This document shows, in pieces, positions 1-64,000 of a DNA stretch of 64,000 nucleotides (the stretch's first letter is position 1; every line of letters starts with the position of its first letter). Location of the stretch: the IMG/VR virus record IMGVR_UViG_3300027749_000064; one strand, given 5' to 3'. A program made the translations under genes and the position numbers. The DNA is from an uncultured virus (IMG/VR IMGVR_UViG_3300027749_000064) (lineage: Duplodnaviria; Heunggongvirae; Uroviricota; Caudoviricetes). The notes beneath the pieces are model-generated. The model was not told the DNA's origin. It made no database searches and saw only the letters and a list, made by a program, of their open reading frames with translations.

Positions 1-132
1 CCCCATATACAACATCATATAAGGAAACTGAGACATTAACCGAATTATAGCCAATATAGAACAGTGTAAACACAAATGGATCCTAGAGAATCAAAAGATC
101 ATATGTGAGTATTGCCAATCCCCCGCCAAATT

Positions 133-231
133 ATGATAGATGAAAATGACTGTAAGAAGCATCACTGGGTCATATTATTTCAAAGAAAATTATGCGATAT
201 ATGTGGCAAAGAGTGGATCAAAGTGGAGTAA
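133..231 (+). CDS. Possible Zn-ribbon micro-protein (MIDENDCKKHHW...CDICGKEWIKVE)
   Basis: Manual translation, 32 aa with C..H.W...CxxC pattern. A similar frame (EQCKHKW...CEYC, stop 134-136) lies just upstream and overlaps by ATGA but has no ATG. Confidence 0.35.
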   Translation: MIDENDCKKHHWVILFQRKLCDICGKEWIKVE

Positions 232-238
232 AGTGGAG
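203..238 (+). promoter_or_regulatory. GTGG repeats with 10-bp period, MraZ-box-like
   Basis: GTGG at 203, 213, 223, 233 (AAAGTGGAG twice); partly inside a micro-ORF. Confidence 0.4.
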
Positions 239-354
239 AATATATTCAATAGATGATGAATAATATCAGTTAATAATTATATATACATTGTTACTGGTTA
301 TAGAGCATATCATAATGCCCATCGTAATGTCAAATTTGCACACACATAAAATTA

Positions 355-370
355 TGTGATAAAAATCACA
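355..370. promoter_or_regulatory. CRP-type box
   Basis: TGTGA-TAAAAA-TCACA; second perfect box at 442-457. Confidence 0.7.
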
Positions 371-677
371 CTTTTTTGTGCATATTTTAGACAATTTTGA
401 TACAAATGTACACAATATGTTCACATTTTGAGATTATTCTGTGTGATTTTGATCACATTTTAAATATATTTATTTTTAGATACATTTATAAGATCATATA
501 CACAAACTTCCAGAGAATTTTATTATGCGTTCGTAATGTCTGGAAAAATATATAGCTCTTCGTAATGTTTATTATATGTATATGGATTAAGATTAAAAAA
601 GTTCCAGAGAAATTCCCGCCGAGTTCGTAATGTCTGATTAATTAATTAGCACGACACGACATTTTATATATTTAAAT

Positions 678-712
678 AAAGAAAAGCCCCGAGCAACATG
701 AAACTCGGGGCT
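678..712 (-). terminator. Intrinsic terminator
   Basis: AGCCCCGAG/CTCGGGGCT stem followed by a T-run on the minus strand, just after ORF 734-1030. Confidence 0.8.
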
Positions 713-733
713 AGGACTTAGTGTAGCGTCCCT

Positions 734-1030
734 TTATACTTGTAGGTACTCAACAGATCTCGGCACCTGTCTACCTACATTCCCCGTCAGACCCAACTCC
801 TCTAGGGAAAGATTTAAGTATTTACATATAGATTGTGTTTCTGCTAAGTGGAATGGAACTATTTTGGCTGTTGCCATTATGTTTATGTAGTTAACCATAT
901 ACTGAAGCAATGATTCATTTACATAAGCACTCTCGTGAAGCATTTTGTAAGCCAAAGCAGCAGGCGATAGGTCAGCGTGGCCTAGGCCCTCAACTATCTG
1001 CTTGTGTAACTTCTCGCTACGCACTGTCAT
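734..1030 (-). CDS. Hypothetical phage protein
   Basis: ORF track; translationally coupled to neighbour. Confidence 0.7.
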   Translation of the reverse strand: MTVRSEKLHKQIVEGLGHADLSPAALAYKMLHESAYVNESLLQYMVNYINIMATAKIVPFHLAETQSICKYLNLSLEELGLTGNVGRQVPRSVEYLQV

Positions 1031-1326
1031 TACTCTGTCTCCTCAACTGCTAAGATTAAATTTTCCTTAACTAGCCAGTCTACTACATCAGAGCCCTCTA
1101 TGTCAAACCCGCCCCAAGGTGTTGCCCAGAATGTATTCCAGATTGTTTTTAGATCTGTGTTAGGGGCCAAGATTGAATCCCATTCGTCTAGTTCCAGGAC
1201 CACATCACGTATGGTGTCCCATACAAACAGCCAACCCAGCGAGAAACCGACGGGGAGTGTCTGAAGATCATCTAGAATACTATTAAACTTATCATACAAC
1301 TCATCACCTAGATTTTCATTAACCAT
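1030..1326 (-). CDS. Hypothetical phage protein
   Basis: ORF track; start trimmed to MVNENL, which follows a GGAG SD. Confidence 0.7.
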   Translation of the reverse strand: MVNENLGDELYDKFNSILDDLQTLPVGFSLGWLFVWDTIRDVVLELDEWDSILAPNTDLKTIWNTFWATPWGGFDIEGSDVVDWLVKENLILAVEETE

Positions 1327-1549
1327 TTGCCTTCTCCAAATCTGATTGATAGAATATGATATCATAGCACATATTGTAGATATTTTCAATAGCGTCTAGA
1401 TAACCAATTGCCCATTGTTCATTTCCAAAATCCTTATGTTGCCATTCATACATAATGTTTTTCAGCTCCCCCTGCAGTACATCAATTAAAGGAACATTAT
1501 GTTCTATGGCCTTTTTCATTTGTGGAGATAAATCATTGTAATTAAGCAT
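1319..1549 (-). CDS. Hypothetical phage protein
   Basis: ORF track; overlapping start and stop with neighbours. Confidence 0.7.
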   Translation of the reverse strand: MLNYNDLSPQMKKAIEHNVPLIDVLQGELKNIMYEWQHKDFGNEQWAIGYLDAIENIYNMCYDIIFYQSDLEKANG

Positions 1550-2273
1550 TTGTCATCTCCCTATGATCTTCGCACTTGTCTATATCTGCACCATAGAAGC
1601 AATTGCGGCATACTTCATTTTCACAATCTTCACACCACATATCAGAAGGGTCTCCAATATATTTGTAATCACATTCATTGCATTGCCAGTTCCAAGATGT
1701 ATCTGATATTACTTCACCTCTAAGGATTTCCATTTCCCCGCCCCAGCCTGTCTCCTCTTCATATGAAAGCGTAAAGAGTAGTTCAGGATACTGAGAAGAT
1801 AGATTAGTTAATGCTTCATTAGGAACACCCCAAGCAGTATTAAAGTTATAATAAACTACTTTGTTATCGCCATTGTCAACAGGACCTTCCATACGTGTAT
1901 CAGGATATTGTTCTTCACTAGACACGGCAACGTCCCACTTAACACCCCAGTTGCGGAGATTCCAGTTGTACCAATCATTGCCGACCTCTTGTTCGGCGTG
2001 GACTTCTTTCCACATATCTTCGCCTTTGGCCTCAAGGTTAACTTTTGCCTTTGCGTGATTGTGATACGCCTCTAAGTCTGTTGGTTTAATTATATTCCAG
2101 AATGCGAAAAGCGGGGCGGGATAAAGAATATCTTTTGCAACACTTGTCTTAGTATTAATATCCCAAGCGTGGGGATGAAATACTTTAAATGGTTGATTCA
2201 TTTGATTTACTAATTTAGTTACAGATTCAGGATTACCTTCTATAGTTAATCCATTAAATACCCAGTTTGGCAT
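1542..2273 (-). CDS. DUF1281/YubB ferredoxin-like domain protein with C-terminal Cys-rich segment
   Basis: MPNW start; WYNW...NWGVKWD, FNTAWGVP, YPEL.F.L.YEE.G motifs. Confidence 0.75.
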   Translation of the reverse strand: MPNWVFNGLTIEGNPESVTKLVNQMNQPFKVFHPHAWDINTKTSVAKDILYPAPLFAFWNIIKPTDLEAYHNHAKAKVNLEAKGEDMWKEVHAEQEVGNDWYNWNLRNWGVKWDVAVSSEEQYPDTRMEGPVDNGDNKVVYYNFNTAWGVPNEALTNLSSQYPELLFTLSYEEETGWGGEMEILRGEVISDTSWNWQCNECDYKYIGDPSDMWCEDCENEVCRNCFYGADIDKCEDHREMTNA

Positions 2274-2455
2274 TATTTATTCTCCTCATCAAAGGCTCCA
2301 TAACTTGGAGTTATTCCGCTAAGCCACTCATAATAACTTAATTTTCCCCCTAATTCCCAGCATTGTAAACAGAAAGTGCCAAATTGTTGTGCTACAACAT
2401 AAGCAGGAATTGGAGAAATTGTTTTACAATTAGTACAAGTTATTCTTTCAGTCAT
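2273..2455 (-). CDS. Small CxxC...CxxC protein
   Basis: ORF track; AAAGGA SD and promoter upstream. Confidence 0.7.
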   Translation of the reverse strand: MTERITCTNCKTISPIPAYVVAQQFGTFCLQCWELGGKLSYYEWLSGITPSYGAFDEENK

Positions 2456-2482
2456 TATTGTCCTTTCGTTGGGTAGGGTCTT

Positions 2483-2504
2483 ATTGTAGCATAGGGTACT
2501 GACA
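2483..2504 (-). promoter_or_regulatory. PafBC/RecA-NDp-type promoter 1
   Basis: TGTCAG-TACCCTATGC-TACAAT. Confidence 0.8.
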
Positions 2505-2509
2505 TTTGG

Positions 2510-2743
2510 CTAGTCCCGCACCTTGTCAGTAGCCTCATCGTAAAGCAACCAGTCTATATCTATAGAATAGACAATCGTAATTGATTTGTCTAAAAGCTGG
2601 AGAACCACATGGTCCCCCTCTGTGTATCCAATTAGTTTAGCATCTTGAATTTGTTCACGACTAAAAGATCTATCTTCGTAAACGGCGGGAATGTGATTAA
2701 AGTAATAAGTATCACTATGAATACTATCCATTATATCAAGCAT
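2510..2743 (-). CDS. Hypothetical phage protein
   Basis: ORF track; start trimmed to MLDIMD. Confidence 0.6.
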   Translation of the reverse strand: MLDIMDSIHSDTYYFNHIPAVYEDRSFSREQIQDAKLIGYTEGDHVVLQLLDKSITIVYSIDIDWLLYDEATDKVRD

Positions 2744-2957
2744 TAGAATACTCCAATTCATTTTGTGATAAAGTAAATACAGTAAAATTAACACCATTGT
2801 TATAACAGAAGTTAACACAATTTATCAGAGATTCTGATTCATATAGTGGATATCCACCTGTATCGTAATCATTATCTAAATCAGGATATACTTCAAACAT
2901 ATTTATACCCCCTGGTGATACTGAATAATCTATTTCATATATTCTAAAGGTTTCCAT
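2736..2957 (-). CDS. Hypothetical phage protein
   Basis: ORF track; begins just after a sigmaA-like promoter (TAGACT-N18-TAAAAT), possibly leaderless. Confidence 0.65.
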   Translation of the reverse strand: METFRIYEIDYSVSPGGINMFEVYPDLDNDYDTGGYPLYESESLINCVNFCYNNGVNFTVFTLSQNELEYSNA

Positions 2958-3000
2958 AGGTAGATTTTAGCATATCGTAATCGTAAAAGTCTAATCGTAA

Positions 3001-3106
3001 TCTCATATTTTGAGATATATTTCAGTGATATATATCACATATCGTAAAGTGTGATTTTAATCACACCCCCGCGCCCAGCTGTCCCACTTTGTCAAGTGGG
3101 ACACGC
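3001..3106. promoter_or_regulatory. Regulatory cassette: TCTCA-N5-TGAGA palindrome, two CRP-type boxes (3024-3039, 3050-3065), 10-bp inverted repeat (3080-3103), GACACGC
   Basis: Read directly from sequence. Confidence 0.65.
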
Positions 3107-3112
3107 AAGGTT

Positions 3113-3316
3113 TTACATATAACTTACTATAAATTCCATAGTCATATGCAAATTACAATCACAATCATTTTTTGCAGAATCAAAGTGATCTTGATATTGC
3201 TCATAGATAAGTGTTACAAGTTCATCTATAGTGTATGGTTTATGTGTTGTGGTAATTGTGAACCTCTTCCATATATGAAATAAAACTTTCAAAACTGTGC
3301 CAATGTCCATTATCAT
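3113..3316 (-). CDS. Hypothetical protein (start uncertain)
   Basis: ORF track; overlaps upstream ORF. Confidence 0.4.
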   Translation of the reverse strand: MIMDIGTVLKVLFHIWKRFTITTTHKPYTIDELVTLIYEQYQDHFDSAKNDCDCNLHMTMEFIVSYM

Positions 3317-3605
3317 TTACCATTTGAGTAGTGAAATCTATTTCTACTACTTCGTCCATATAAGGTGTGTCAGCATTTGCTACATAGATACCGAAGCCTG
3401 TTTCGCTATCCCGCCCATCTTTTGTTAGTTGGTCAATTACAATGCGGAGAGCATACGGAACATCTCCCATATCAGTACGCTTTTTTGCGGCGGTAAGTGC
3501 TAACGCTAAATCCTCACGCCAAGTTGTTTCGCCCCAATGTGAATATAGCACAATGTTAGGCATATCTAACTCTGTTTTAAATACGAAATTAACTCTTGCT
3601 CCCAT
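3240..3605 (-). CDS. Hypothetical phage protein (LYSHWG motif)
   Basis: ORF track; start trimmed to MGARVNF after AGGAGG SD. Confidence 0.75.
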   Translation of the reverse strand: MGARVNFVFKTELDMPNIVLYSHWGETTWREDLALALTAAKKRTDMGDVPYALRIVIDQLTKDGRDSETGFGIYVANADTPYMDEVVEIDFTTQMVNDNGHWHSFESFISYMEEVHNYHNT

Positions 3606-3701
3606 TAAAGTATTCCTCCTATCGCTATAAATACTCCAAGTAATACTGCTAAGATTAAAACTACTGCCGTTGAGTTCATTATCATATCCTATCAAATAAG
3701 T

Positions 3702-3728
3702 GGCGGGAAGTCAATTACCCTTCCCGCC
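3702..3728 (-). terminator. Hairpin, probable terminator
   Basis: GGCGGGAAG/CTTCCCGCC just after the stop of 3737-4153. Confidence 0.55.
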
Positions 3729-3736
3729 CAAGTTAA

Positions 3737-4153
3737 TTAGAGATATTGAGCGATAGACTTCATAGTGGAAGCATTAACTGTTTCCTCATCTGTCATACGC
3801 AAGATGTTAAGAGCGTTTGTGATTTCCTCTTTGGAATTTTTGTATTCATAATTTGCCATTTGGTTAAACTCACGGGTTGGCTCAACAGGGAAGTTAGAGC
3901 CTTTTGTGCTGACATCAAAATCAACATTTAGAGTTTCACTCCAAGAACGATACCCTGTGCGAAGGTTAGTTGCGGTTGCGATATTAGCGAGAGCGAAGTC
4001 TTTTAGACTATCTTGCCAAGCCTTGTATGCTTCTTGGAACTTTGCTTCGTTGGCTTCTTGACCAGCGTAGTCTATCTCAATTTGGGCTAACTTAGCCTCT
4101 AGTGCCTTGATTACCTTTGGTGTTGCCACCTTTACTGTTATTGCTCTAGCCAT
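3737..4153 (-). CDS. Hypothetical phage protein
   Basis: ORF track; SD and dedicated promoter. Confidence 0.8.
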   Translation of the reverse strand: MARAITVKVATPKVIKALEAKLAQIEIDYAGQEANEAKFQEAYKAWQDSLKDFALANIATATNLRTGYRSWSETLNVDFDVSTKGSNFPVEPTREFNQMANYEYKNSKEEITNALNILRMTDEETVNASTMKSIAQYL

Positions 4154-4186
4154 TTGGTTTCCTTTGTTAGTTGGGTTGGTAGGATT

Positions 4187-4208
4187 ATTATATCAGGGGG
4201 GTCTGACA
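4187..4208 (-). promoter_or_regulatory. PafBC-type promoter 2
   Basis: TGTCAG-ACCCCCCTGA-TATAAT. Confidence 0.8.
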
Positions 4209-4216
4209 TAAACTTA

Positions 4217-4277
4217 AGTGCTAGTTCTTACTTACGACATTGGGCTAGAACTCTAGCAAACTGCCCCTGTTTCGTTG
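4217..4277 (-). ncRNA. Candidate small pseudoknotted RNA
   Basis: Own promoter, no ORF seen; GGGC/GCCC crossing UGCUAG(A)GUUCU/AGAACUAGCA. Confidence 0.4.
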
Positions 4278-4283
4278 TCCCCT

Positions 4284-4305
4284 ATTATATCATAGGGGTC
4301 TGACA
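4284..4305 (-). promoter_or_regulatory. PafBC-type promoter 3
   Basis: TGTCAG-ACCCCTATGA-TATAAT. Confidence 0.8.
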
Positions 4306-4533
4306 TTATGCTTCGTGCTTGGGCAAATCAACACGCACATTTTTCTGTATGTTAGAACTAATTAACTTACCTTGAAAAGCGACCATCATTTTTGCCAATT
4401 TCATTTCATCACCAGATGATAGTTCAATCTGGTTATCATTTAAGACTACATATTCAACGCCATATTGAATAGCCTTGCCCAATCCATAGCCCATTTGGGC
4501 TTTGGACGGGACTTCTAAAGTAATAACTGCCAT
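4306..4533 (-). CDS. Hypothetical phage protein
   Basis: ORF track. Confidence 0.7.
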   Translation of the reverse strand: MAVITLEVPSKAQMGYGLGKAIQYGVEYVVLNDNQIELSSGDEMKLAKMMVAFQGKLISSNIQKNVRVDLPKHEA

Positions 4534-4534
4534 A

Positions 4535-5158
4535 TTAGGATTCCTCTCTTACATCATAAATAGAATAATCATTTACATCTACATCAGCACCATAAGTGGA
4601 TACTGAAAGTTCATCATTTAACATAGTTTCTAAATCATAATTATCGGTTAAAGATACACGCATAATTCCACTTACTTCTATTGTGGCAGAAAACTCTATT
4701 TCTTTACTTAGTTCAAGATTAAATAAATCTGCGATAGTTGTTAAAGTATCTTGGTCATTACTGTCATCATAAGCGTCAATAATTATGTTATGAAGTGTAA
4801 CTAACTTGTTGTTGAAATCAGCAACATCACTCTTAAGTTGACGGGCTTCACGAAGTTTCCACTCTAAATCATTAACTTTATCAGTTTGATAAGTTGTTTC
4901 GTTATTCTCAATTATCTTGTAGGTAACGAGTAGGTTTGGGTTATATTCTGTTGAAATATCCATTTGTTCCTCTTTCTTTGTAGTTGGGTCTATTGTAACA
5001 TCTACCACCGACATCAGTATCATTTGTGTATCTGTCATACATTTTGGACACATATCACTTTGTGGAAGTCCATTAGATTTAATAGTCATTACAATATGGC
5101 TATCGCAATTTGGGCATACATAATCCCATTTAAACCAGGTTTCATTTTTATTTGTCAT
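4535..5158 (-). CDS. Hypothetical protein with N-terminal CxxC...CxxC ribbon; probable internal start at 4963
   Basis: ORF track; internal promoter and GAGGA SD before MDISTEY. Confidence 0.7.
   Translation of the reverse strand: MTNKNETWFKWDYVCPNCDSHIVMTIKSNGLPQSDMCPKCMTDTQMILMSVVDVTIDPTTKKEEQMDISTEYNPNLLVTYKIIENNETTYQTDKVNDLEWKLREARQLKSDVADFNNKLVTLHNIIIDAYDDSNDQDTLTTIADLFNLELSKEIEFSATIEVSGIMRVSLTDNYDLETMLNDELSVSTYGADVDVNDYSIYDVREES
4992..5013 (-). promoter_or_regulatory. PafBC-type promoter 4 (intragenic)
   Basis: TGTCGG-TGGTAGATGT-TACAAT. Confidence 0.75.
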
Positions 5159-5165
5159 AGCGAGT

Positions 5166-5194
5166 ATTTTAGCAGGTTACTCACGGGTAATCAA
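5166..5194 (-). promoter_or_regulatory. sigmaA-type promoter with palindrome in spacer and GACACGCC next to -35
   Basis: TTGATT-N17-TAAAAT with TGn. Confidence 0.7.
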
Positions 5195-5239
5195 ACGACA
5201 CGCCGTAAAACTCAGGGTGATTTTTATCACACTCGTAAC

Positions 5240-5266
5240 GACACGCCCGACCTCGGGGGGCGCGGC
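5240..5266. repeat. GC-rich dispersed repeat, copy 1 (one extra G)
   Basis: GACACGCCCGACCTCGGGGG(G)CGCGGC; CRP-type box at 5216-5231. Confidence 0.95.
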
Positions 5267-5267
5267 C

Positions 5268-5305
5268 CATGCATAATTATACATTGCAATGCATATTTAT
5301 ACATT
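5268..5305. promoter_or_regulatory. Tandem ARG (ArgR) boxes
   Basis: CATGCATAATTATACATT-GC-AATGCATATTTATACATT (18+2+18). Confidence 0.7.
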
Positions 5306-5314
5306 GAAGCTTTG

Positions 5315-5390
5315 CGATCCGTACGGGATTTGAACCCGTGGTCTCTACAGTGACAGTGTAGTGAATTAAACCAAACTATTCTAACGGACC
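5315..5390 (-). tRNA. tRNA-Asp (GTC), CCA not encoded
   Basis: Manual cloverleaf: acceptor GGTCCGT/ACGGATC, D arm GAAT/ATTC, anticodon arm CTACA-CTGTCAC-TGTAG, T arm ACGGG-TTCAAAT-CCCGT, discriminator G. Confidence 0.95.
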
Positions 5391-5396
5391 TTGCGG

Positions 5397-5421
5397 TGAG
5401 CAGTTTTTACACTTGCTCAGG
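5397..5421 (-). other. Conserved hairpin motif, copy 1
   Basis: CCTGAGCAAGTGTAAAAACTGCTCA; other copies at 10812-10836 and 11356-11380. Confidence 0.65.
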
Positions 5422-5432
5422 TGTTGCGAATT

Positions 5433-6461: not shown

Positions 6462-6490
6462 ATGATTTCCTTTCTTTGTTTGTTAAATTG

Positions 6491-6512
6491 AGTATAACAT
6501 ATGGCACCGACA
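6491..6512 (-). promoter_or_regulatory. PafBC-type promoter 5
   Basis: TGTCGG-TGCCATATGT-TATACT. Confidence 0.8.
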
Positions 6513-6604
6513 TTTGTCCACTTTAAATAATCATTTTAAGACACATTCAACCAATTTTGCGTGTGAGAAATATCACAGAGATTTTTTCGGCGTGTCGTAA
6601 ATGC

Positions 6605-6630
6605 GACACGCCCGACCTCGGGGGCGCGGC
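6605..6630. repeat. GC-rich dispersed repeat, copy 2
   Basis: Exact 26-mer; CRP-type box at 6562-6577; inverted GGCGTGTCG at 6589. Confidence 0.95.
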
Positions 6631-6777
6631 CCAAAAATTTAATTTTGTCAAGTCAACACGCAGCTATTTTTTAAATAAAAAAAATATTTTTAATATAACA
6701 ATAATGGCCACCGTGTAAAATAATTGTGAAAACACGTTGACCATTAATTGCATTTTATCCCCTCGTTTAAATATATT

Positions 6778-6933
6778 TTATAAGATCTTTTGTTTTTCTA
6801 CAATTTTTCTAGCCTTTGCAGATAACGGTTTACCTGGGCAGTTCATATGAAAATAAGTTATTAGCATATCTTCTTCATTTGTTGTTGTGGCCCCGCATTT
6901 ATGGCAGGACCACGATTCTTTTTTATTCTTCAT
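6778..6933 (-). CDS. Small Cys/His protein (MKNKKESWSCHKCG...), not in ORF track
   Basis: Manual translation, 51 aa, overlaps stop of upstream gene. Confidence 0.45.
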   Translation of the reverse strand: MKNKKESWSCHKCGATTTNEEDMLITYFHMNCPGKPLSAKARKIVEKQKIL

Positions 6934-7246: not shown

Positions 7247-7517
7247 TTTCTATTGAATCAAACATATTTTGAATTTCTAGGGCTTCATCCGCCATTTTAT
7301 CAAAGTCCTCACCCATTAGCAAGTGCGACACTCTAGTAGCGACTACACTAGCAAGTAAAGTAGAATAAGCAAACATCATTTCAGAAATACGATCTAATTT
7401 TTCTGAATTACCTTCAGCATAGTCCCAAGCAATTTCACGAGCAGCATTCATCACTTCAATATCAATTACTGAATCAGCAGTCGCTTCTCTAATTTCAAAG
7501 AAAGTAGAAATACTCAT
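7233..7517 (-). CDS. Hypothetical phage protein
   Basis: ORF track. Confidence 0.7.
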   Translation of the reverse strand: MSISTFFEIREATADSVIDIEVMNAAREIAWDYAEGNSEKLDRISEMMFAYSTLLASVVATRVSHLLMGEDFDKMADEALEIQNMFDSIENGDN

Positions 7518-56468: not shown

Positions 56469-56489
56469 TAAACAATGAGGAGGTAAAAA

Positions 56490-57029: not shown

Positions 57030-60000
57030 TGCTAAATAATGTCAGTTCTGATATTTTTTCTAATTCTAGTGCTATTGAAATTCAACCAATAGTTTCTGCT
57101 GAATGGAATCATAATTTATTCAATGCACCGTACGTTACTGTTGCTGGAACAGGCACTCTTATTACCCCCACTTTATCTTCTGGAACAATAACAACAGGAG
57201 GTACAGACAGTACACTCCCTGGATTTAGCATAAATAATTTTATTTTAACGGCGGGATCAACAAGCGCTTATGGAAATGTAGTATATACAGCAAGTTCTTT
57301 AAGTTCTCCAGCATATAAAATAGTAACTTATTTTAAAACAAACAATAATTTGCCAGTTTCTGTAAATGCATATGCAAAAGGTGGATCTTCTACTCAAGCG
57401 GGATCTGCATATACAGAAGTAAATTCATATGGGTGGACTAAACTTGAAGCTTATGTAGGTGGATATAGTTCTTCGGATACAATATCTTCTTTAACTTATA
57501 CCATATCTGTAAATTCATTAAATTCTGATAATAATGCCACAACTATATACTTTACACCCCCTCAAATTTTTGAAACAACATTTTATAATTATCAAAATAA
57601 TTCTTTATGGCCAACTGATAGCGCATTTACTTATTTTAGACCAGGAGAAACTTATGTGACAACTGGTAATATAAATGTTGCAACTCCTTCTAATTTTAGA
57701 AAAATAAATAGATCTTCAAGTATTTTAAATGGTTTTAGCGGATCAGCTTATGCACCTATAAGTTCAATATCTCAATCGCCAAGTTTTACAATGGCAAAAC
57801 ATTCTTTGCCATTGTATAAAAATTCTTTACCAAACGAAATGGCAATTTATAAATATTTTGTTTCAGATACATCTACATTAACTAATCCAAAAATTGCAGC
57901 GTTATATGCTCAAAATATTAATGTAAATAAAATTGTTATTAAGTTTAATACTTTAATGAGTGTGCCAACATTTAATTTATATATTGATGGCTCAATTATA
58001 ACTGTAGATGGAAGTACAACACTTACTACCCCGACAAATTCTGATAGCATTGCAACAGGGGTTTTAGTCTTATATTGGACAGGATCGGCATGGACTAAAA
58101 CAAAATGGTCAACAATGCCAGCATTTGATTCATCAGGTGTATTATCTAAATATACTTCATTTAAAAAAATATCTATAACTCAAACAAATGCTACAGCTAC
58201 ATCTCAATTTTCTTCATATAACAATTCAAACTTTACCTCAGACCTTACTAGAATGCAACTGATAGAGCTGTCACCTAGACTTGAAATTGATGTTTCAGAT
58301 TTTGTTAAAGATGTCACTATAAATAAATCGTTAGATAGCAAAAATAACTTTGTTCCAATATCTTCAATAAATGCAAATGATGTTTCAATTAATCTTTCAG
58401 CAATTCCTATAGCATTAAATAATGGATTTATTCCAATTTTTTCAAGTCAGAGTAATTTATCAACAAACGTGCTAGCAAATATGCTTAGAAAAAATATTAA
58501 ATTTTATGTAAATTTTACATTAAAATCTTATTATGATGCTACAACAAATAATTTTGTTCAATTAAATATACAAAGTGGCAAAACAGTTGGGACGCATATT
58601 CCTGGAGGAATATTTTACTCAGATTCATGGGATGAAACAGATATTAAAGATGTTAAAATTGTAGCGTATGATATTACAAGATATTTGCAGACTACAGCTG
58701 TTTCAGATTATGTTGCTAATTTAAAACCAGTATTTGATGTAATAACTAATATGCTGGATCTATCGGGCTTTACTGATTATGATGTAGATTCATTATATGA
58801 TGTTTGCAATGATTACACTTCCCCGCTTGATCTTGCATATTTTTATACAAACGGGCGGGACACAACAATTGTTGATACCCTAGCAGGGATATTCCTAGCA
58901 TATCAAATAGGTGCATATATTGATGAATATGGGGTAATGAAATTTAAAAGTTTATCTCAAATATTAAATAATAATACATCTAATTTAACTATATCCGATT
59001 CATCAATTTTAGTGGGTGGTTATTCTATTATAAATAAAGCTAAACCTGGAAAACTTTCATTAAGATATCAAGTGCCTAAAATTAAACAAACATTATCTTT
59101 ACAAAATGCTGCTACTCCAGATCAAAAAAATAGTCCATCTTTTATTATAACAACATCAACAGATATTATGTGGTCTCAAGAAACATCAGATGCAGTAGGA
59201 TTTAATTATTTAAATTCAACTATGCAAGAAACAGATAATTTTTATACTATTAATACAAACGATCTTCTTGATATATTTCATACTTTTAATTTAAGTAATA
59301 ATGGATATGCGGTAATTGAGGATGAATTAGTTTCATTTGTATATAAAGAGTATAAAATACAACAGTATTCAAATTCATCAAATTATGTTTATGTTTCTGT
59401 AAAAAATGACCTTGAGCTTAATTCAGAAGTTAATAGATTTGTTAAAAAATATTCAGCAGGATTAGTAAGTTCAAATTATGGCAATATAACTAATGCTTCT
59501 GGTGATGGTACAACTATGACTTTTACATGTAATAACAATTTTAAAGCAGGTCTAAAGATTTATGTAACTGGTGTAACTCCAGCAGGATATAATGGGAATG
59601 GAAAAATTATTTCTGCAAATTCAACAACTTTTACAGTAAAAGGGGCAACTACTGGATCTTATGTTTCTGGCGGACAAGCAATTGTTGCTACAGATTACGA
59701 TGTAGTAGTTATTCCGACAGGAAGAATTACAAACACACAAAGAGGTCTTTTTGGCACAGTTCCTAAAACACATTCTATTGCTACAAGCGCTTCATCTAAA
59801 AATTTAATTGAAGCATCAATAAATGCAAGTAATGTAATGTCAACAGGAACAACAAGAACATCTATTGTAACAAACAGCTCGCCCTTACCCAACGTTACAA
59901 AACTTGCAATTACTGCACCAACTACCACCAAATGCCTAGTCTATCCATCATCTCAAGATATTGGATATCATACCTATTCAGTTAAATTTGACTTAACAAA

Positions 60001-61405
60001 TCAACAAGTTGCTACGGCGGGCTTATTTTTTAATAATAATGGATCAAATTCAAGTGGAACTTATTTTGTAGAATTATTACAATATAATACACCAACTGAA
60101 TCAGCAGGTGCTACAATGAATAATCCAGCAATCTATCAGTATATGATATCTATTTCACAAATTGTTAGCGGCACATTAACACAGTTAGCTTGGGCAGATG
60201 TAACAGGAACTGTAAAAAATATATTATTAAATAATCCAAAAGTATTTTCTAAAAATGGAACAACATATACCACTATATCTGACGATGTATTTCATTTAAA
60301 AGCAATTCATTGGACATCTGATGGTACTGACGCAACTAATTCAGAAGGTGAAGATGCTGGCCAATTAATTAAAGTCTTTTTAAATAACGCACTAGTAACT
60401 GGCTTTCAAGTACCAGGCAGTAGTTCAAACACATATTTAACATCTAGCTGGAAAGCAACAGATAAAAACTTAGTAACAGGGTTAAGAAAAAATGTAGTTT
60501 TAAATAGTAGTTTTTTTAATACGTCTGGGAAATACTTTGGATTTTGTACTTCAACTTCATTTTCTGGAATCAATGGAGGCAACCCAATTTATTCTTCTGT
60601 TTCATCTACCGTAATACCTGCAAATTTAAGAGAAATTTATGCAAATGAAAAAATATTATCAGAACGCAGTGTAAATTATTGGTATCAAGATAGAGAATTT
60701 TTAAATGGAGTTATTCAAAAACAAAATATATTTGGTAAATATCGTGGCTACATGATGCAAACAACACCAGAAGTTGTAGGAATAAATGTTTATGATGTTC
60801 AATATACTAATCCAGCTGCAGTAACTGCAGATGCTTATTGGGGCGGGTACTTATTACAGTATTACCCTGGGTCAGAAGTATATGATCAAGCATATAAACA
60901 ACAACAAGTAATTGATGAATATGGACTATCTTTTTCTACAGTATTAAATACAGGATTTAGAGCTAAATTTGCAGTTGCCAACAATAAAAGACAAATGGTA
61001 TATCTTGCACATAAGCCTGATACAAATATACAATTAGATTCAAGATTTACTATTTGGACTCATGAAATTGTAAGTCAATCAGATCCACAAATTTTTGAAA
61101 AAATTACAGATAGATCAAATATATCTGAAGTAGCACAAATTGATTCTGTGTGGATACAGTCTGAAGAAGCAGCAAATAAACTTTTAAAAGTAATTGAAAA
61201 AGGTTTTGACGGGTTTTCAAAAGATACTAAAATTCAACTATTTGGTAATCCATTAATTCAAGTAGGAGATGTTGTAACAATTAATTATTCATTATCTAAA
61301 TTAAATCAACAAAAATATGCCGTACATTCAGTTTCACAAGCATTTAATCAAGGTTTAAAAACAACTCTTGTCCTTAATCAAATTGATAAAGGGGTATCTT
61401 ATTAA
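57029..61405 (+). CDS. Large tail tip/hub protein
   Basis: YIDEYG..KF; C-terminal GNPLIQVGDVVTI. Confidence 0.75.
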   Translation: MLNNVSSDIFSNSSAIEIQPIVSAEWNHNLFNAPYVTVAGTGTLITPTLSSGTITTGGTDSTLPGFSINNFILTAGSTSAYGNVVYTASSLSSPAYKIVTYFKTNNNLPVSVNAYAKGGSSTQAGSAYTEVNSYGWTKLEAYVGGYSSSDTISSLTYTISVNSLNSDNNATTIYFTPPQIFETTFYNYQNNSLWPTDSAFTYFRPGETYVTTGNINVATPSNFRKINRSSSILNGFSGSAYAPISSISQSPSFTMAKHSLPLYKNSLPNEMAIYKYFVSDTSTLTNPKIAALYAQNINVNKIVIKFNTLMSVPTFNLYIDGSIITVDGSTTLTTPTNSDSIATGVLVLYWTGSAWTKTKWSTMPAFDSSGVLSKYTSFKKISITQTNATATSQFSSYNNSNFTSDLTRMQLIELSPRLEIDVSDFVKDVTINKSLDSKNNFVPISSINANDVSINLSAIPIALNNGFIPIFSSQSNLSTNVLANMLRKNIKFYVNFTLKSYYDATTNNFVQLNIQSGKTVGTHIPGGIFYSDSWDETDIKDVKIVAYDITRYLQTTAVSDYVANLKPVFDVITNMLDLSGFTDYDVDSLYDVCNDYTSPLDLAYFYTNGRDTTIVDTLAGIFLAYQIGAYIDEYGVMKFKSLSQILNNNTSNLTISDSSILVGGYSIINKAKPGKLSLRYQVPKIKQTLSLQNAATPDQKNSPSFIITTSTDIMWSQETSDAVGFNYLNSTMQETDNFYTINTNDLLDIFHTFNLSNNGYAVIEDELVSFVYKEYKIQQYSNSSNYVYVSVKNDLELNSEVNRFVKKYSAGLVSSNYGNITNASGDGTTMTFTCNNNFKAGLKIYVTGVTPAGYNGNGKIISANSTTFTVKGATTGSYVSGGQAIVATDYDVVVIPTGRITNTQRGLFGTVPKTHSIATSASSKNLIEASINASNVMSTGTTRTSIVTNSSPLPNVTKLAITAPTTTKCLVYPSSQDIGYHTYSVKFDLTNQQVATAGLFFNNNGSNSSGTYFVELLQYNTPTESAGATMNNPAIYQYMISISQIVSGTLTQLAWADVTGTVKNILLNNPKVFSKNGTTYTTISDDVFHLKAIHWTSDGTDATNSEGEDAGQLIKVFLNNALVTGFQVPGSSSNTYLTSSWKATDKNLVTGLRKNVVLNSSFFNTSGKYFGFCTSTSFSGINGGNPIYSSVSSTVIPANLREIYANEKILSERSVNYWYQDREFLNGVIQKQNIFGKYRGYMMQTTPEVVGINVYDVQYTNPAAVTADAYWGGYLLQYYPGSEVYDQAYKQQQVIDEYGLSFSTVLNTGFRAKFAVANNKRQMVYLAHKPDTNIQLDSRFTIWTHEIVSQSDPQIFEKITDRSNISEVAQIDSVWIQSEEAANKLLKVIEKGFDGFSKDTKIQLFGNPLIQVGDVVTINYSLSKLNQQKYAVHSVSQAFNQGLKTTLVLNQIDKGVSY

Positions 61406-61455
61406 AATGACCAAAAAGTGGTATAATCTATATATAAATAAGAAAAGGTGGAATC

Positions 61456-61965
61456 GTGTCCTATATTAAAATTTCAGACCCTAATATTATTGACTTGGCT
61501 GCTTGGCATCAAGTTATTAATGTAATAAATCAGCACAGCGATAGCTTAGCCGCAATAACTAATAATTTCGGGGTGTCTAGCTCAGTAACTTGGGATGCAG
61601 CTGGCTATGCACATCAATATGACCCAGCGTCTCAAGCAATTATATTTGGACGAGCTTCAAACAGAACTGCAGACTCGGGAGTAGCAGGTGTTTATTATGG
61701 ATCAGTAACTTTTGCGGATTCAGCAACAGGCACAAATTCATTTTCGGGGACTCCAATAGTAACAGCAACAATTTTTACTGGCAATGCAACAACAGTTGCA
61801 GCAACACTTGAAGATGTTGTAATAAATGTTTACAATGTTTCATCTACAGGATTTAAGTATAGATTGTTTAAAACAGGAACTGGAACAACAGATACAACTC
61901 ACACAATATCTTCAGGAAGCACAATTTATATTAACTGGATGGCAATCGGTCCAAGATTAAGTTAG
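61456..61965 (+). CDS. Minor tail protein (H-type lectin/gp53-like C-terminus)
   Basis: VTF...FSGTPIVTAT...VSSTGF...INWMAIG. Confidence 0.65.
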   Translation: MSYIKISDPNIIDLAAWHQVINVINQHSDSLAAITNNFGVSSSVTWDAAGYAHQYDPASQAIIFGRASNRTADSGVAGVYYGSVTFADSATGTNSFSGTPIVTATIFTGNATTVAATLEDVVINVYNVSSTGFKYRLFKTGTGTTDTTHTISSGSTIYINWMAIGPRLS

Positions 61966-61975
61966 TGGGGGTAAG

Positions 61976-64000
61976 ATGAAATCTATACCAGGATCTAATA
62001 ATGATGCGGCTAAAAAACCAACGCTCTATATACCCGATGGTGATCCTCGGGCAGCAAATAGTCTTGCCGCAGCAAATGCAGCATCAAAAAGTAATGCAGA
62101 AGTTAAAAATATTTCATCAAGATCATTTTCTTTAACACAATTAAGTGGCGCAGCAGCTTCTGGAAGTCCAATTTCTACCGCTACATTACCTGCTACGCCA
62201 GGTAATTCACCATCAGTTAATATAGGTCCAATTATTAAGGGTTTAGTTTTACCAGGTGGAATTACTAATTTTACAGCAGTTTGGGATGGCGATAATCTTG
62301 TATTTACTTTTAATTGTGATCCTACGGCATCACAAAATCAATATCTTTCTAATTTTTATTTTTTATTTACTCCAACAGGTAGTTCTACTCAGTATGCCTG
62401 GAGTCCACAAGCTACTCAAGTAAATAATTCGGGCAGTACACAAACAATTACTTTTACATTAACCGATAATACAAATACATTTAATACACAAGTTACAAGT
62501 TTTTCTGCAATTAGTGTTTCTGCACAAGATGGATTTGGCAATAGAGGCGATTATGTTTCTTTAACAACAATTCCGACATATAGTAGTGGATTGCCTATTC
62601 CAGTATATACAATTTCAGCTATTAATAATGGATATTCTGTTGCGTGGACAGCAATTACAAATTCAAATTTTTATAGGATTCAAATACAGGAATATGTTTC
62701 AGATGCTACATCAGAACCAACAGGCGTTACTTATACAGAAACTTATAATGGCACATTAAATCCCGCCGTAGTAATTGCTCCAACATTAAATAAAAGATGG
62801 GTTAAAGTAAGATTTTGGGCAACATCAAATGTTCCAGGTCCTTGGGGTGCAGCACAAGCAGTTACTCCAACAGCACCAATTTCAGTAAATACTACAGTGC
62901 CCACAGAAGTAACAGTAGGAACAGTATCTTGGTCGGGGACAAATATTGTTATTCCATACACACTACCTTCTACAAATGCAGGAGTTAGATTTTTAGTTAA
63001 ATTAACAGCACCAAATTCACAAGTTGGATATTTTTATTTTTTCCCAGATGGCACAACAAATTTAAGTCAATCACACACTATTAGTTCTGCTGATTTATAT
63101 GCACAGTTTGGCGCATATTATTCTTCTTATTCTGGAGTTTTTGTTAGCTACTCATCTGTAGATGTAACTAGTAGCGGAGCCTCTTTTAATGTCCCCGCAC
63201 GATCAAATCCCTTAGCAGCAATTACTCCAAATCCAACAATAGTTGGAAACATTAATGGTTATAACGTAACATTTGATTTTTCTACAATCCCAGCAACTTA
63301 TGCTGAAATTTATCAAAAGTATACAAGTTCTGCTTGGTCTTCTAACCCACCTGATGCTATTACTGCATCTTATTCTTCAGGCGGGGCTTCAGGAGCAACA
63401 ACAATTGTAGTAAATACAGTAAAAGATAACGATGGGAATACATTAACTTCTATACAAGATGGATATTTAATTACTGGAACAGGAATTCCAACAAATACAT
63501 ATGTTTCTTCTGTTTCAGGAACTGCACCAACATTTACCTTAACATTAAGTAAGGCTTTAACTACACAAGCAGCGGGAACTTATACTATGCAAGGTTTAGT
63601 GTGGGCTGGGGTAAGTCCAGCAAATATATTTAGTAATTTATATATTCCTACATATGTAATTGTAAGATATTATGATAATTTTAATAATGCTTCTTTGCTT
63701 TCTTCTTCAACAACAGTTACTCCAATTGATCCATCTCTTTCTGTTATTAGCAATGCAGTACAAATAGGAAGCGGAGGAGCAATATATGTAGGAGCCAGTG
63801 CCACTAGTGGCGCAAGAGTAGTTTTAGGACCTTCTAAAAAAGCTCCAGATGGTTCGCAATATTCAGGCATATTTGCATTTGATTATGGATCAGCATCTGG
63901 AGATGCTGCAAGTACATCAATTATTACAAATCCTTCTGCGGGAGGATTTACATTTGAAACTATAAATGCAAAAATTGCAGACTGGACTATTTCAACAAAT
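61976..64000 (+). CDS. Large Ser/Thr-rich tail protein, truncated by window end, not in ORF track
   Basis: ATG at 61976 (MKSIPGSNND...); same frame reads INAKIADWTISTN at the window end; I translated both ends, not every codon. Confidence 0.8.
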   Translation, partial: MKSIPGSNNDAAKKPTLYIPDGDPRAANSLAAANAASKSNAEVKNISSRSFSLTQLSGAAASGSPISTATLPATPGNSPSVNIGPIIKGLVLPGGITNFTAVWDGDNLVFTFNCDPTASQNQYLSNFYFLFTPTGSSTQYAWSPQATQVNNSGSTQTITFTLTDNTNTFNTQVTSFSAISVSAQDGFGNRGDYVSLTTIPTYSSGLPIPVYTISAINNGYSVAWTAITNSNFYRIQIQEYVSDATSEPTGVTYTETYNGTLNPAVVIAPTLNKRWVKVRFWATSNVPGPWGAAQAVTPTAPISVNTTVPTEVTVGTVSWSGTNIVIPYTLPSTNAGVRFLVKLTAPNSQVGYFYFFPDGTTNLSQSHTISSADLYAQFGAYYSSYSGVFVSYSSVDVTSSGASFNVPARSNPLAAITPNPTIVGNINGYNVTFDFSTIPATYAEIYQKYTSSAWSSNPPDAITASYSSGGASGATTIVVNTVKDNDGNTLTSIQDGYLITGTGIPTNTYVSSVSGTAPTFTLTLSKALTTQAAGTYTMQGLVWAGVSPANIFSNLYIPTYVIVRYYDNFNNASLLSSSTTVTPIDPSLSVISNAVQIGSGGAIYVGASATSGARVVLGPSKKAPDGSQYSGIFAFDYGSASGDAASTSIITNPSAGGFTFETINAKIADWTISTN

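What the first reader, a model, noticed from the sequence alone, without database searches (positions are those of the whole stretch)
1..64000. Window-wide excess of GCGGG/CCCGC in AT-rich DNA
Seen: by eye I tallied roughly 100 occurrences, in both orientations and spread fairly evenly. A simple base-composition estimate (~1/3 GC) gives about 15-20. In genes that otherwise favour GCA/GCT and CCA/CCT, the rarer GCG, GGC and CCC codons recur specifically to form this pentamer. Inference: a selected DNA signal overlaid on coding sequence (modification target, Chi-like, primase or genome-organising protein site). Counts are approximate.
Basis: partly seen in the sequence, partly recalled or inferred. 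Interest (0 to 1): 0.7.

Follow-up and report, generated by a model that had tools for sequence, protein, structure and literature searches.

The report
Over-abundant GGCGGG word in lake actinophage
This AT-rich lake phage and its many uncultured relatives carry the short GC-rich DNA word GCGGG (best form GGCGGGA) several times more often than their proteins and codon habits predict, on both strands and in non-coding DNA too, a pattern not seen in the possible host bacteria sampled, so it looks like a phage-specific DNA signal whose reader is still unknown.

Summary
The window has 103 GCGGG/CCCGC sites against about 22 expected. After synonymous-codon shuffling, GCGGG is the most over-represented of all 1,024 pentamers (75 vs 18.6, z about 15), and CCCGC ranks fourth. 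All six frame-by-orientation classes are enriched, and non-coding density equals coding density, so this is a DNA-level signal. The best form is GGCGGG (13x) or GGCGGGA (about 28x).

The contig is about two-thirds of a roughly 108-kb freshwater, whiB-encoding siphophage related to Streptomyces Stanwilliamsviridae. At least 596 IMG/VR relatives exist. The 75 loci tested share the excess (GGCGGG 8.3x over shuffles), but cultured Streptomyces phage Coruscant does not (0.76x).

Sites are not conserved in position: they turn over, so the pressure acts on density. None of 770 actinobacterial genomes screened shows the excess, including GC-matched ones (about 1.0x). One closed genome shows no strand polarity.

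The pattern fails the features of Chi-rich phages (single orientation, terminal clustering, host mirror). No DNA methyltransferase or Vsr was found. Best reading (0.42): a word read by a phage-encoded factor, either the lineage's DnaG-type primase or a genome-marking binding protein. Mutation bias is not excluded. This scan found the same word before in a related genome (e1-6126217).

The parts
1..64000 (.). Field of 103 copies of the word. GCGGG on the + strand (62 sites) starts at 2111, 2116, 2685, 3703, 6030, 6385, 7017, 7658, 9213, 9741, 11727, 11755, 11761, 12645, 13243, 13744, 13981, 20560, 20769, 21458, 22220, 22832, 24834, 25105, 25879, 27361, 27472, 27649, 29392, 31852, 34074, 36307, 37851, 38042, 38427, 40308, 40689, 42182, 43725, 44781, 45215, 46708, 47090, 48121, 50157, 50439, 50481, 51531, 52023, 52390, 52818, 54255, 55143, 55327, 57251, 57398, 58855, 60017, 60843, 63381, 63572, 63938. 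CCCGC on the + strand (41 sites) starts at 122, 615, 1108, 1737, 2515, 3068, 3410, 3723, 6199, 6892, 7988, 8389, 12085, 14238, 14432, 14669, 15375, 15452, 16249, 16460, 16600, 17896, 18968, 20542, 20852, 21391, 29310, 31747, 32868, 34055, 34246, 36492, 37363, 37706, 44726, 45164, 54048, 54299, 58822, 62762, 63194.
   Evidence: Coordinates. Enrichment against Markov and codon-preserving nulls. Flanks: position -1 is G in 59, A in 30, T in 30 and C in 1 of 120 unique contexts; position +5 is A 66, G 35, T 15, C 4; no information further out.
1..17177 (-). Arm of mostly minus-strand small (early-type) genes. It has 17 GCGGG and 21 CCCGC on the + strand, the highest density of the three arms (2.19 per kb in genome coordinates 8900-25812).
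   Evidence: Gene calls; counts. Minority-strand genes of three genomes are enriched 3.1x and 2.9x in the two orientations.
17511..64000 (+). Plus-strand arm: glycosyltransferase, ribonucleotide reductase, portal, protease, major capsid protein, 2,551-aa tape measure and tail genes. It has 45 GCGGG and 20 CCCGC on the + strand, 1.42 per kb.
   Evidence: Annotation; counts. Majority-strand genes of three genomes: GCGGG 4.4x and CCCGC 2.8x over synonymous shuffles.
3703..3727 (.). Inverted pair of the word (GCGGG at 3703, CCCGC at 3723) that could form a GC-rich hairpin between genes. Similar pairs lie at 20542/20560 (just after the reductase gene), 34055/34074 and 58822/58855. Only these 4 pairs (8 of 103 sites) are of this kind.
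   Evidence: pairs within 40 nt; contexts printed.
2111..2120 (+). Two overlapping-adjacent copies (starts 2111 and 2116). A second such doublet is at 11755/11761. Short gaps are not in excess overall.
   Evidence: gap CV 0.96.

Best explanation
GCGGG (best form GGCGGG followed by A or G, never flanked by C) is a dispersed DNA-level recognition word of this phage lineage. It is held at about 1.6 sites per kb in genes (every frame, both orientations) and between genes. New sites are gained continually, mostly by synonymous changes such as GCA/GCT-GG to GCG-GG, and old ones are lost, so the pressure acts on how many sites the genome has, not on where they are. At Ala-Gly dipeptides the GCG codon is used about 8 times more often than elsewhere, which corresponds to a weak scaled advantage per site (roughly S = 2; this figure is inferred). 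Neither acI-type nor GC-matched actinobacterial chromosomes carry the excess, and neither does the cultured relative Coruscant. I see two candidates with about equal odds. (a) The clade's own DnaG-type primase, whose CHC2 zinc ribbon would read template CCCGC(C) and start GC-rich primers that are stable in 35% GC DNA. (b) A genome-coating or self-marking DNA-binding protein; the full heptamer is about 10-16 times denser in the phage than in the sampled actinobacterial chromosomes. Shown here: the excess, its DNA-level nature, its specificity, its turnover, its spread in the family, and its absence from the sampled hosts. Inferred: that selection maintains it, and who reads it.
For: The excess survives codon-preserving and palindrome-respecting nulls. 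All six frame-by-orientation classes are enriched 1.9-7.0x, and non-coding density (1.80 per kb) matches coding density (1.63 per kb). Specificity: only words overlapping (G)GCGGG are enriched among the 16 GC-only pentamer pairs, and single-substitution neighbours are at 0.5-1.5x; GGCGGG is 60 against 4.6 and GGCGGGA 36 against 1.3. Family: in 75 loci, GCGGG is 541 against 146.2, CCCGC 172 against 78.4, GGCGGG 274 against 33.2 and CCCGCC 50 against 8.4 over synonymous shuffles. Turnover: with amino acids conserved, our frame-0 sites are retained in 32 of 127 comparisons against 62.5% for other frame-0 pentamers. Relatives carry 280 GCGGG in aligned columns, of which only 48 are shared with ours. 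102 distinct columns carry the word, at a median frequency of 0.05. Not a host mirror: the GGCGGGA to reversed-control ratio is 9.0 in the phage (36 vs 4) and at most 2.1 and 2.8 in two screens of 401 actinobacterial genome rows each. acI-type samples give GCGGG 0.65x. A closed 1.35-Mb genome gives 0.91x with no polarity, 159 leading against 142 lagging. GC-matched genomes (34-38% GC) give about 1.0x. Coruscant gives 0.76x. The clade encodes its own replisome, including a primase with a CHC2 zinc ribbon plus Toprim.
Against: No reader has been identified. The replication module is not on this contig and is known only from relatives. Against the primase candidate: single-strand gaps reach 6.6 and 8.9 kb here and 14-18 kb on the minority strand of relatives, and spacing is not more even than random except in one of nine main tests. 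Coruscant has a homologous primase but no excess. As far as I recall, no primase word is known to be enriched in a genome. Against the binding-protein candidate: 5-7 bp is short and no candidate gene was found. Against selection in general: in close pairs, sites are only slightly and not significantly better kept than GC-rich controls (72 of 106 against 60-65%, p about 0.15). Enrichment strength co-varies with complete TCGA avoidance, a host-linked trait (Spearman rho -0.42, p 0.002, n = 51), which could point to a host factor instead. The true host is unknown.
Confidence: 0.42

Rival explanations
1. Chi-like word. A host end-processing helicase-nuclease (AdnAB or RecBCD type) recognises GCGGG, stops degrading phage DNA and switches to recombination. 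The AT-rich phage raises the density of a GC-rich word that its host has by chance.
For: [quoted passage not shown] Our sites also turn over. The phage density (1.65 per kb) is of the same order as the chance density in the sampled actinobacterial genomes (0.7-1.0 per kb). Enrichment co-varies with a host-linked trait. Circularly permuted ends could make both orientations useful; relative G406 assembles with a 127-bp end overlap.
Against: Chi-rich phages show extreme single-orientation bias (20 vs 3; 32 vs 0) and clustering toward the packaging end. Here both orientations are enriched (3.7x and 2.2x; 4.4x and 2.8x) and density is uniform across arms. Host Chi is over-represented in host genomes (O/E about 2.3-2.4). 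Here the sampled hosts give 0.65-1.0x, with no polarity in a closed genome. The clade also has its own RecA/UvsX-type recombinase.
Confidence: 0.15
2. No function. A context-specific mutation or repair bias, for example of the phage's DnaE-type polymerase or a host very-short-patch-like repair, converts GCWGG and similar words to GCGGG faster than it is lost.
For: Sites are not conserved in position, and the alternative state in relatives is mostly GCAGG (63) or GCTGG (33). Loss rates in close pairs do not differ significantly from GC-rich controls. Density is equal in coding and non-coding DNA.
Against: The effect is very large and sharply word-specific, with flank rules (13-28x for the 6- and 7-mers; neighbours about 1x). 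Both a transition (A to G) and a transversion (T to G) would be needed, in proportion to codon usage. The donor words are not depleted: GCAGG 1.19x, GCTGG 1.47x. No Vsr or DNA methyltransferase is encoded (0 of 5). Coruscant, with the same polymerase type, shows none.
Confidence: 0.15
3. Binding word for a host protein, such as a nucleoid, transcription or topology factor, that the phage recruits along its genome, for instance to counter silencing of AT-rich DNA.
For: The signal tolerates either orientation and is uniform. It co-varies with host-linked TCGA avoidance. It is absent in Coruscant, which infects a very different host.
Against: No excess in any sampled actinobacterial genome, where such a factor's sites would often be visible. 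No known actinobacterial factor with this word was found by me; the AdpA-like consensus that I recalled does not fit the strict GCGGG core.
Confidence: 0.1
4. Target of a DNA modification, made by a phage or host enzyme, that benefits the phage in proportion to the number of marked sites.
For: CCCGC is, from my recall, a known type IIS recognition word. The contig encodes a class-I SAM methyltransferase of unknown substrate (window 13333-13905).
Against: No C5 or N4/N6 DNA methyltransferase in 0 of 5 relatives, including a complete one. ThyX, dUTPase and GT25-type glycosyltransferases point to ordinary DNA. Total purging of TCGA and CCGG argues that the DNA is open to restriction. Restriction targets are normally avoided, not enriched.
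Confidence: 0.06

Closest known systems
Chi-rich phage genomes (RecBCD/AddAB Chi; lambdoid phages LLS and MD8; Bobay et al. 2013, PMC3784561; Genome Res 2025, PMC12315714; passages read)
   Same: A short word is over-represented several-fold beyond composition and codon usage, scattered through genes. It is thought to be gained and lost over time, and it is beneficial by number.
   Different: Chi in phages is almost all in one orientation, clustered toward the packaging end, identical to the host's Chi (itself over-represented in the host), and strongest in phages without a recombinase. Here both orientations are enriched, density is uniform, the sampled hosts lack any excess or polarity, and the clade has a RecA/UvsX-type recombinase.
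Primase recognition words of zinc-ribbon primases (T7 gp4 pentamers, bacterial DnaG trinucleotides; recalled, not read here)
   Same: Short words (3-5 nt) read on single strands by a CHC2-type zinc ribbon. They are needed many times per genome and on either strand, and are independent of the host. The clade encodes such a primase.
   Different: Known words are common by chance, and I know of no genome in which they are enriched. A GC-only pentamer or hexamer would be unprecedented. Per-strand gaps of 9-18 kb are awkward for this reading.
Host-mirroring iterated words (DNA uptake sequences, cyanobacterial HIP1, FtsK-orienting KOPS; recalled; KOPS abstract seen in the listing)
   Same: Very abundant short oligomers overlaid on coding sequence.
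   Different: Those are properties of the host chromosome that phages may inherit, and KOPS are highly skewed by strand. Here the host-type genomes are at or below expectation and the skew is mild.
Stoperators of Cluster A mycobacteriophages (recalled)
   Same: An actinophage-encoded protein reads many copies of one asymmetric word spread over the genome.
   Different: Stoperators are 13-bp sites, about 20-35 per genome, mostly between genes and oriented with transcription. Here a 5-7-bp word has about 120 copies, mostly inside genes, in both orientations.

Membership tests
Chi sites accumulated in phage genomes | Nearly all copies lie in the one orientation that is active for the nuclease entering from the packaging end | tested here: not met
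   Both orientations are enriched over synonymous shuffles: 3.70x and 2.19x in 75 family loci; 4.38x and 2.79x in majority-strand genes and 3.10x and 2.94x in minority-strand genes. Chi-rich phages show 20 vs 3 and 32 vs 0.
Chi sites accumulated in phage genomes | Copies are concentrated near the packaging end or between ori and cos | tested here: not met
   Density is 1.84, 2.19 and 1.42 per kb in the three arms. Gaps are Poisson-like, CV 0.96.
Chi sites accumulated in phage genomes | The word is the host's Chi, which is over-represented and polar in the host chromosome | tested here: inconclusive
   The host is unknown. Sampled actinobacterial genomes: at most 2.1x and 2.8x against the reversed control in 2 x 401 rows; 0.65x, 0.91x and about 1.0x by Markov models; 159 leading against 142 lagging in one closed genome.
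Chi sites accumulated in phage genomes | Strongest in phages that lack their own recombinase | tested here: not met
   Relative G405 encodes a RecA/UvsX-type recombinase, resolvases and a Cas4-like nuclease. The literature also reports O/E 2.5 for phages with a recombinase but no inhibitor, so this feature is weak.
Primase recognition words | The phage encodes a primase with a sequence-reading zinc ribbon | tested here: met
   G405 L132:5026-5979 has Zn_ribbon_DnaG at 42.5 bits (cut-off 24.9) plus Toprim and matches phrog_47. The gene is not on our incomplete contig.
Primase recognition words | Primer synthesis starts at the word on a single-stranded template | not testable with these tools
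   Needs an in vitro priming assay.
Primase recognition words | Sites are frequent enough on every lagging-strand template | tested here: inconclusive
   Own genome: one site per 933 nt on the + strand and per 1,594 nt on the - strand, but maximum gaps of 6,579 and 8,884 nt. On the minority strand of G405 and G406 the maximum gaps are 13,947 and 17,612 nt.
FtsK-orienting or other architecture-imparting polar words | Extreme strand skew that flips at defined points, and presence in the host chromosome | tested here: not met
   The orientation bias beyond coding constraints is mild (78% observed against 69% null). No skew in a host-type closed genome.
Restriction or methylation target with very-short-patch repair overshoot | A cognate DNA methyltransferase or Vsr nuclease exists, and the deamination-product words are depleted | tested here: not met
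   PF00145, PF01555 and PF03852 each hit 0 of 5 relatives while the control genomes were detected. GCAGG is 1.19x, GCGAG 0.76x, GCGGA 1.41x and ACGGG 1.37x. Host enzymes could not be tested.
Codon-pair or dipeptide bias | The effect is confined to one reading frame on the coding strand and explained by the protein sequence | tested here: not met
   All six frame-by-orientation classes are enriched with the protein sequence held fixed, and non-coding density is equal. The Ala-Gly dipeptide is only 1.12x and Pro-Ala 1.27x.

The most novel reading that the evidence does not exclude
The word is a self-mark. This clade writes a private heptamer-scale code into its own AT-rich genome, about 10-16 times denser than in the sampled actinobacterial chromosomes. 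A phage-encoded protein (primase, packaging or protection factor, or the partner of a host-DNA-degrading nuclease) can then tell phage DNA from host DNA by site density alone, without any chemical modification.
Probability: 0.15. Interest if true: 0.85.

Novelty: new variant of a known kind. Interest (0 to 1): 0.62.

Why it matters
Dispersed, number-selected DNA words are rare, and they are informative windows on DNA transactions; Chi is one example. Here such a word is very strong (8-28x for the 6- and 7-mer). It is shared by a large, globally sampled family of uncultured lake actinophages, and it does not behave like any described class. It is not mirrored in host-type genomes, it is enriched in both orientations, it is uniformly spread, and it turns over fast. 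If a phage protein reads it, that would reveal either an unusually long and GC-rich primase specificity or a modification-free way of marking self DNA. Both can be tested directly with oligonucleotide assays on proteins that can be made without culturing the phage. The word is also a practical signature for recognising members of this clade, including contigs mis-binned into bacterial MAGs.

Tried and rejected
1. Codon or dipeptide explanation: rejected.
2. Side effect of purging TCGA, CCGG, CGCG, GGCC, CATG and GCGC: rejected. The constrained shuffle gives 33 against 111 observed.
3. General excess of GC-only words or GC heterogeneity: rejected. GGGGG, GGGGC, GCGGC and CGGGC are about 1x.
4. 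Extended or bipartite motif: none found.
5. Excess of close or hairpin pairs: only 4 pairs.
6. Relic of a GC-richer ancestor: not supported. Coruscant is at 0.76x and sites are young, not conserved.
7. Host identification failed. The reductase search in genome contigs returned phage contigs mis-binned in MAGs of many phyla. The whiB gene is the vertically inherited phage copy, 47-49% identical to Streptomyces phages. The G2 actinophage accession named in PMC10202952 is not in the phage collection, so the test on unrelated phages of the same host could not be run.
8. Nick or cut test by read ends: impossible, because all 24 runs are kept as contigs; read laying was not used.
9. Even spacing, as a gap-limiting requirement: not seen. 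One nominal result (G405 top strand, CV 0.79, P 0.011) among 18 tests.
10. Purifying selection in close pairs: the direction is right but it is not significant.
11. Whether the polarity follows transcription or the genome strand: undecidable, with only 24 against 29 sites in minority-strand genes.
12. Literature. Searches for the word together with phage terms listed nothing about this motif in phages. That covers listings and abstracts only, and subscription journals are not covered.
Full report
**Observation.** The window holds 62 GCGGG and 41 CCCGC, 103 in all, against 21.7 expected from base composition at 35.2% GC. Markov-1 and Markov-2 models expect 19.5 and 23.1, and the word is the most deviant pentamer under Markov-2. 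The window is bases 8636-72635 of a single 73,470-bp contig. It differs from that file at 23 single bases. The whole contig has 79 plus 42 copies.

**Codon-preserving nulls.** I called 96 ORFs by a greedy scheme, giving 92% coding. I then shuffled synonymous codons within each gene, which keeps every protein and each gene's codon usage. Coding-strand GCGGG is 75 against 18.6 +/- 3.8 (maximum 28 in 200 shuffles). CCCGC is 36 against 13.1 +/- 2.7. These are ranks 1 and 4 of 1,024 pentamers, and the other top words are shifted versions of the same motif. Shuffling codon order gives 12.0 and 7.1. The genome also lacks several palindromes, so I ran a synonymous shuffle that may not create TCGA, CCGG, CGCG, GGCC, CATG or GCGC. 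It gives 33.4 +/- 3.7 against 111 observed. The result that would have refuted the finding was therefore not obtained.

**A DNA-level signal.**
- With proteins held fixed, each of the six frame-by-orientation classes is enriched. GCGGG in frames 0, 1 and 2 is 46/10.7, 17/5.1 and 12/2.4. CCCGC is 20/10.4, 7/1.4 and 9/1.3.
- Non-coding DNA has 1.80 sites per kb against 1.63 in genes.
- 46 of 110 GCG codons are followed by GG. 12 of 27 CGG codons and 20 of 66 CCC codons lie inside the word.
- The protein level is barely touched: Ala-Gly is 1.12x and Pro-Ala 1.27x.

**Motif definition.**
- Of the 16 GC-only pentamer pairs, only those overlapping (G)GCGGG(G) are enriched. GGGGG, GGGGC, GCGGC and CGGGC are about 1x.
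- All single-substitution neighbours lie between 0 and 1.5x; the two zeros contain CCGG.
- GGCGGG is 60 against 4.6, and GGCGGGA is 36 against 1.3.
- Only positions -1 (G 59, A 30, T 30, C 1 of 120) and +5 (A 66, G 35, T 15, C 4) carry information. There is no second half-site.

**Layout.**
- Gaps are Poisson-like (CV 0.96), and sites lie uniformly along genes and across the three gene arms at 1.84, 2.19 and 1.42 per kb.
- Only four inverted pairs could be hairpins.
- Per strand, spacing is no more even than random, with maximum gaps of 6.6 and 8.9 kb. Ignoring orientation, the maximum gap is 2,355 against a random median of about 3,100 (P about 0.06), and this is not repeated in two relatives.

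**What the genome is.**
- It is a siphovirus with a portal, protease, major capsid protein, a 2,551-aa tape measure, a CHAP endolysin and a class II-like ribonucleotide reductase.
- Just outside the window it carries a WhiB gene (38.1 bits against a cut-off of 23.6), GroES, thioredoxin and SSB.
- The nearest named phages are the 130-kb Streptomyces Stanwilliamsviridae. Portal and capsid are about 53% identical, the reductase 64% and WhiB 47-49%. Gene order matches phage Coruscant.
- The contig ends inside an open reading frame and lacks the replication and packaging block.
- Relative G406 is rated 100% complete at 108 kb and has a 127-bp end overlap. Our contig is therefore about two-thirds of a genome.
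- Runs holding it are freshwater or lake metagenomes.

**Relatives.**
- The capsid search found at least 596 IMG/VR loci, of which 80 were kept, at 63-96% identity and all 34-40% GC.
- In the 75 loci of at least 4 kb (5 shorter ones were dropped), synonymous shuffles give these ratios: GCGGG 541/146.2 (3.70x), CCCGC 172/78.4 (2.19x), GGCGGG 274/33.2 (8.25x) and CCCGCC 50/8.4 (5.92x).
- Some loci are duplicates or parts of one another, so the counts are not all independent, although the ratios are.
- Strength is graded. It is 3.9x (Markov-2) in the 21 loci with no TCGA at all, 2.5x in the other 54, and 1.5x in the eight most distant loci. TCGA avoidance and word excess correlate (rho -0.42, p 0.002, n = 51).
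- Coruscant (48% GC) has no excess: GCGGG 57/74.8 and GGCGGGA 3/5.6.

**Turnover.**
- Relatives align at 70-83% nucleotide identity.
- Where the overlapped amino acids are conserved, our frame-0 GCGGG is retained in 32 of 127 comparisons (25%). That compares with 62.5% for other frame-0 pentamers, 57.7% for those with G/C at the third position, and 49% for words with at least 4 G/C. Frame 1 gives 8 of 28 against 43%. CCCGC in frame 0 gives 6 of 20.
- At our sites the relatives mostly have GCAGG (63), GCGGG (48) or GCTGG (33).
- The relatives carry 280 GCGGG in aligned columns, of which 48 coincide with ours. 102 distinct columns bear the word, at a median frequency of 0.05.
- Sites are therefore gained and lost independently, and what is kept is the density.
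- In 60.8 kb of close-pair alignments (88-98.7% identity) the word is intact in 72 of 106 cases, against 59.9-64.7% for GC-rich controls. That is the direction expected under weak purifying selection, but p is about 0.15.

**Orientation.** In this genome alone the coding-strand bias (75:36) is not beyond the codon null (p 0.067). Pooled family loci show a real but modest bias (p 6e-10). In three genomes, majority-strand genes give 4.38x against 2.79x (p 0.007) and minority-strand genes 3.10x against 2.94x. That is too few sites to say whether the bias follows transcription or the genome strand.

**Host side.**
- The host is unknown; WhiB points to Actinomycetota.
- The GGCGGGA to reversed-word ratio is 9.0 in the phage (36 vs 4).
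- In 401 genome rows of the class and 401 of the phylum reached from an actinobacterial MAG (770 distinct handles), the highest ratios are 2.1 and 2.8. Both tallies include genomes flagged as unpublished, none of which is quoted here.
- Twelve 20-kb samples of ten small genomes (eight closed, 1.35-1.5 Mb, 47-48% GC) give GCGGG 0.65x, GGCGGG 0.61x, TCGA 1.06x and CCGG 0.89x.
- 400 kb from both replichores of one closed genome gives GCGGG 0.91x and GGCGGGA 0.030 per kb (the phage has 0.49 per kb). Leading against lagging is 159:142, rank 370 of 1,024 for skew.
- Four low-GC genomes (34-38% GC, matched to the phage) are at expectation; for example, G566 has 62/66.2, 13/15.4 and 5/5.2.
- The excess, and the purging of TCGA and CCGG, are properties of the phage and not of these chromosomes.

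**Phage-encoded functions.**
- The 90%-complete relative G405 has a DnaB-like helicase and a DnaG-type primase (CHC2 zinc ribbon 42.5 bits, plus Toprim). It also has SSB, a DnaE-like polymerase, a RecA/UvsX-type recombinase, resolvases, a Cas4-like nuclease and TerL.
- It also carries ThyX, dUTPase, a Dps-like protein and GT25-type glycosyltransferases.
- C5 and N4/N6 DNA methyltransferase and Vsr profiles hit 0 of 5 relatives, while the control genomes were detected.

**Interpretation.**
- The pattern is a sharply defined 5-7-bp word, enriched in both orientations and everywhere, under pressure on number rather than place. It is specific to one phage clade and is not mirrored in host-type genomes.
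- The pattern fails the features reported for Chi-rich phages: near-exclusive orientation, terminal clustering, and a host Chi that is itself over-represented (passages read).
- It also fails the features of polar architecture words, uptake sequences and methylation-linked repair.
- I therefore favour a reader encoded by the clade itself (confidence 0.42). The zinc-ribbon primase and an unidentified genome-marking DNA-binding protein are about equally likely candidates.
- The rivals are a Chi-like host interaction (0.15), a context-specific mutation or repair bias (0.15), a host DNA-binding factor (0.10) and a modification target (0.06).
My tests on this genome agree with it. They add the turnover, host-genome, Coruscant and palindrome-control results.

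**Limits.**
- Gene calls are greedy ORFs, not a trained gene finder.
- The replication module is inferred from relatives.
- No experimental or read-level data could be used.
- Primase word specificities, the type IIS site and stoperators are recalled from memory, not read here.

Noticed in passing
window 1-64000 (whole contig): TCGA and CCGG are completely absent (0 against about 101 and 0 against about 44 expected). CGCG (7/29), GGCC (42/108) and CATG (150/360) are depleted. Relatives vary: 21 of 75 loci have no TCGA at all. The sampled actinobacterial genomes do not avoid TCGA or CCGG. This is classic restriction-site avoidance, and it suggests the DNA is not protectively modified.
   Followed up: partly
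window 29716-36393 (+): Three tandem paralogous genes of about 740 aa are built from roughly 120-bp (40-aa) tandem repeats: about 33 copies at 29795-33828 and about 15 at 34378-36189. They show weak EPTP-like repeat hits. This explains the repeated 8-mers (for example 26 and 28 copies) seen in k-mer tables. They are probably tail-fibre or receptor-binding proteins.
   Followed up: partly
window 652-12310, mostly between minus-strand early genes: The heptamer CGACACG occurs 13 times against fewer than 1 expected, 12 of them in this arm. Three or four copies are followed by the same GC-rich hairpin-capable stretch (at 5239, 6604, 10738). This is a separate repeated intergenic element, possibly an early promoter, operator or terminator.
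   Followed up: partly
window 48813-56468 (+): The tape-measure gene encodes 2,551 aa. By the usual rule of thumb (recalled, about 0.15 nm per residue) that implies a very long tail of about 380 nm.
   Followed up: no
window 5314-5390 (-): A single tRNA-Asp (GTC) gene. Streptomyces relatives such as Coruscant carry about 40 tRNAs in a block that our contig lacks.
   Followed up: no
L083-L085, L088 and other loci: Contigs of this phage family, with reductase 79-89% identical, sit in MAGs labelled cyanobacterium, Bacteroidia, Saccharibacteria, Brevundimonas and others, so they are mis-binned viral contigs. In G003 the word's matches concentrate on such a contig (C6).
   Followed up: partly
Streptomyces phage Coruscant (L109-L111): Coruscant avoids a different set of words almost totally: CTGAAG is 1 against 142 expected, and GGATCC, CTCGAG, AGGCCT and CTGCAG are all 0. 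So each branch of the family purges the restriction words of its own hosts.
   Followed up: no
window 17511-18509, 36751-38117; 13333-13905 (-): Several glycosyltransferases flank the structural genes, and a class-I SAM methyltransferase (Methyltransf_24) lies in the early arm. Their substrates are unknown; virion glycosylation is a plausible guess.
   Followed up: no
relative G405, top strand: On the majority strand of G405 the word is spaced more evenly than random (CV 0.79, P 0.011). This is not seen in our contig or in G406, and it is one nominal hit among many tests.
   Followed up: partly
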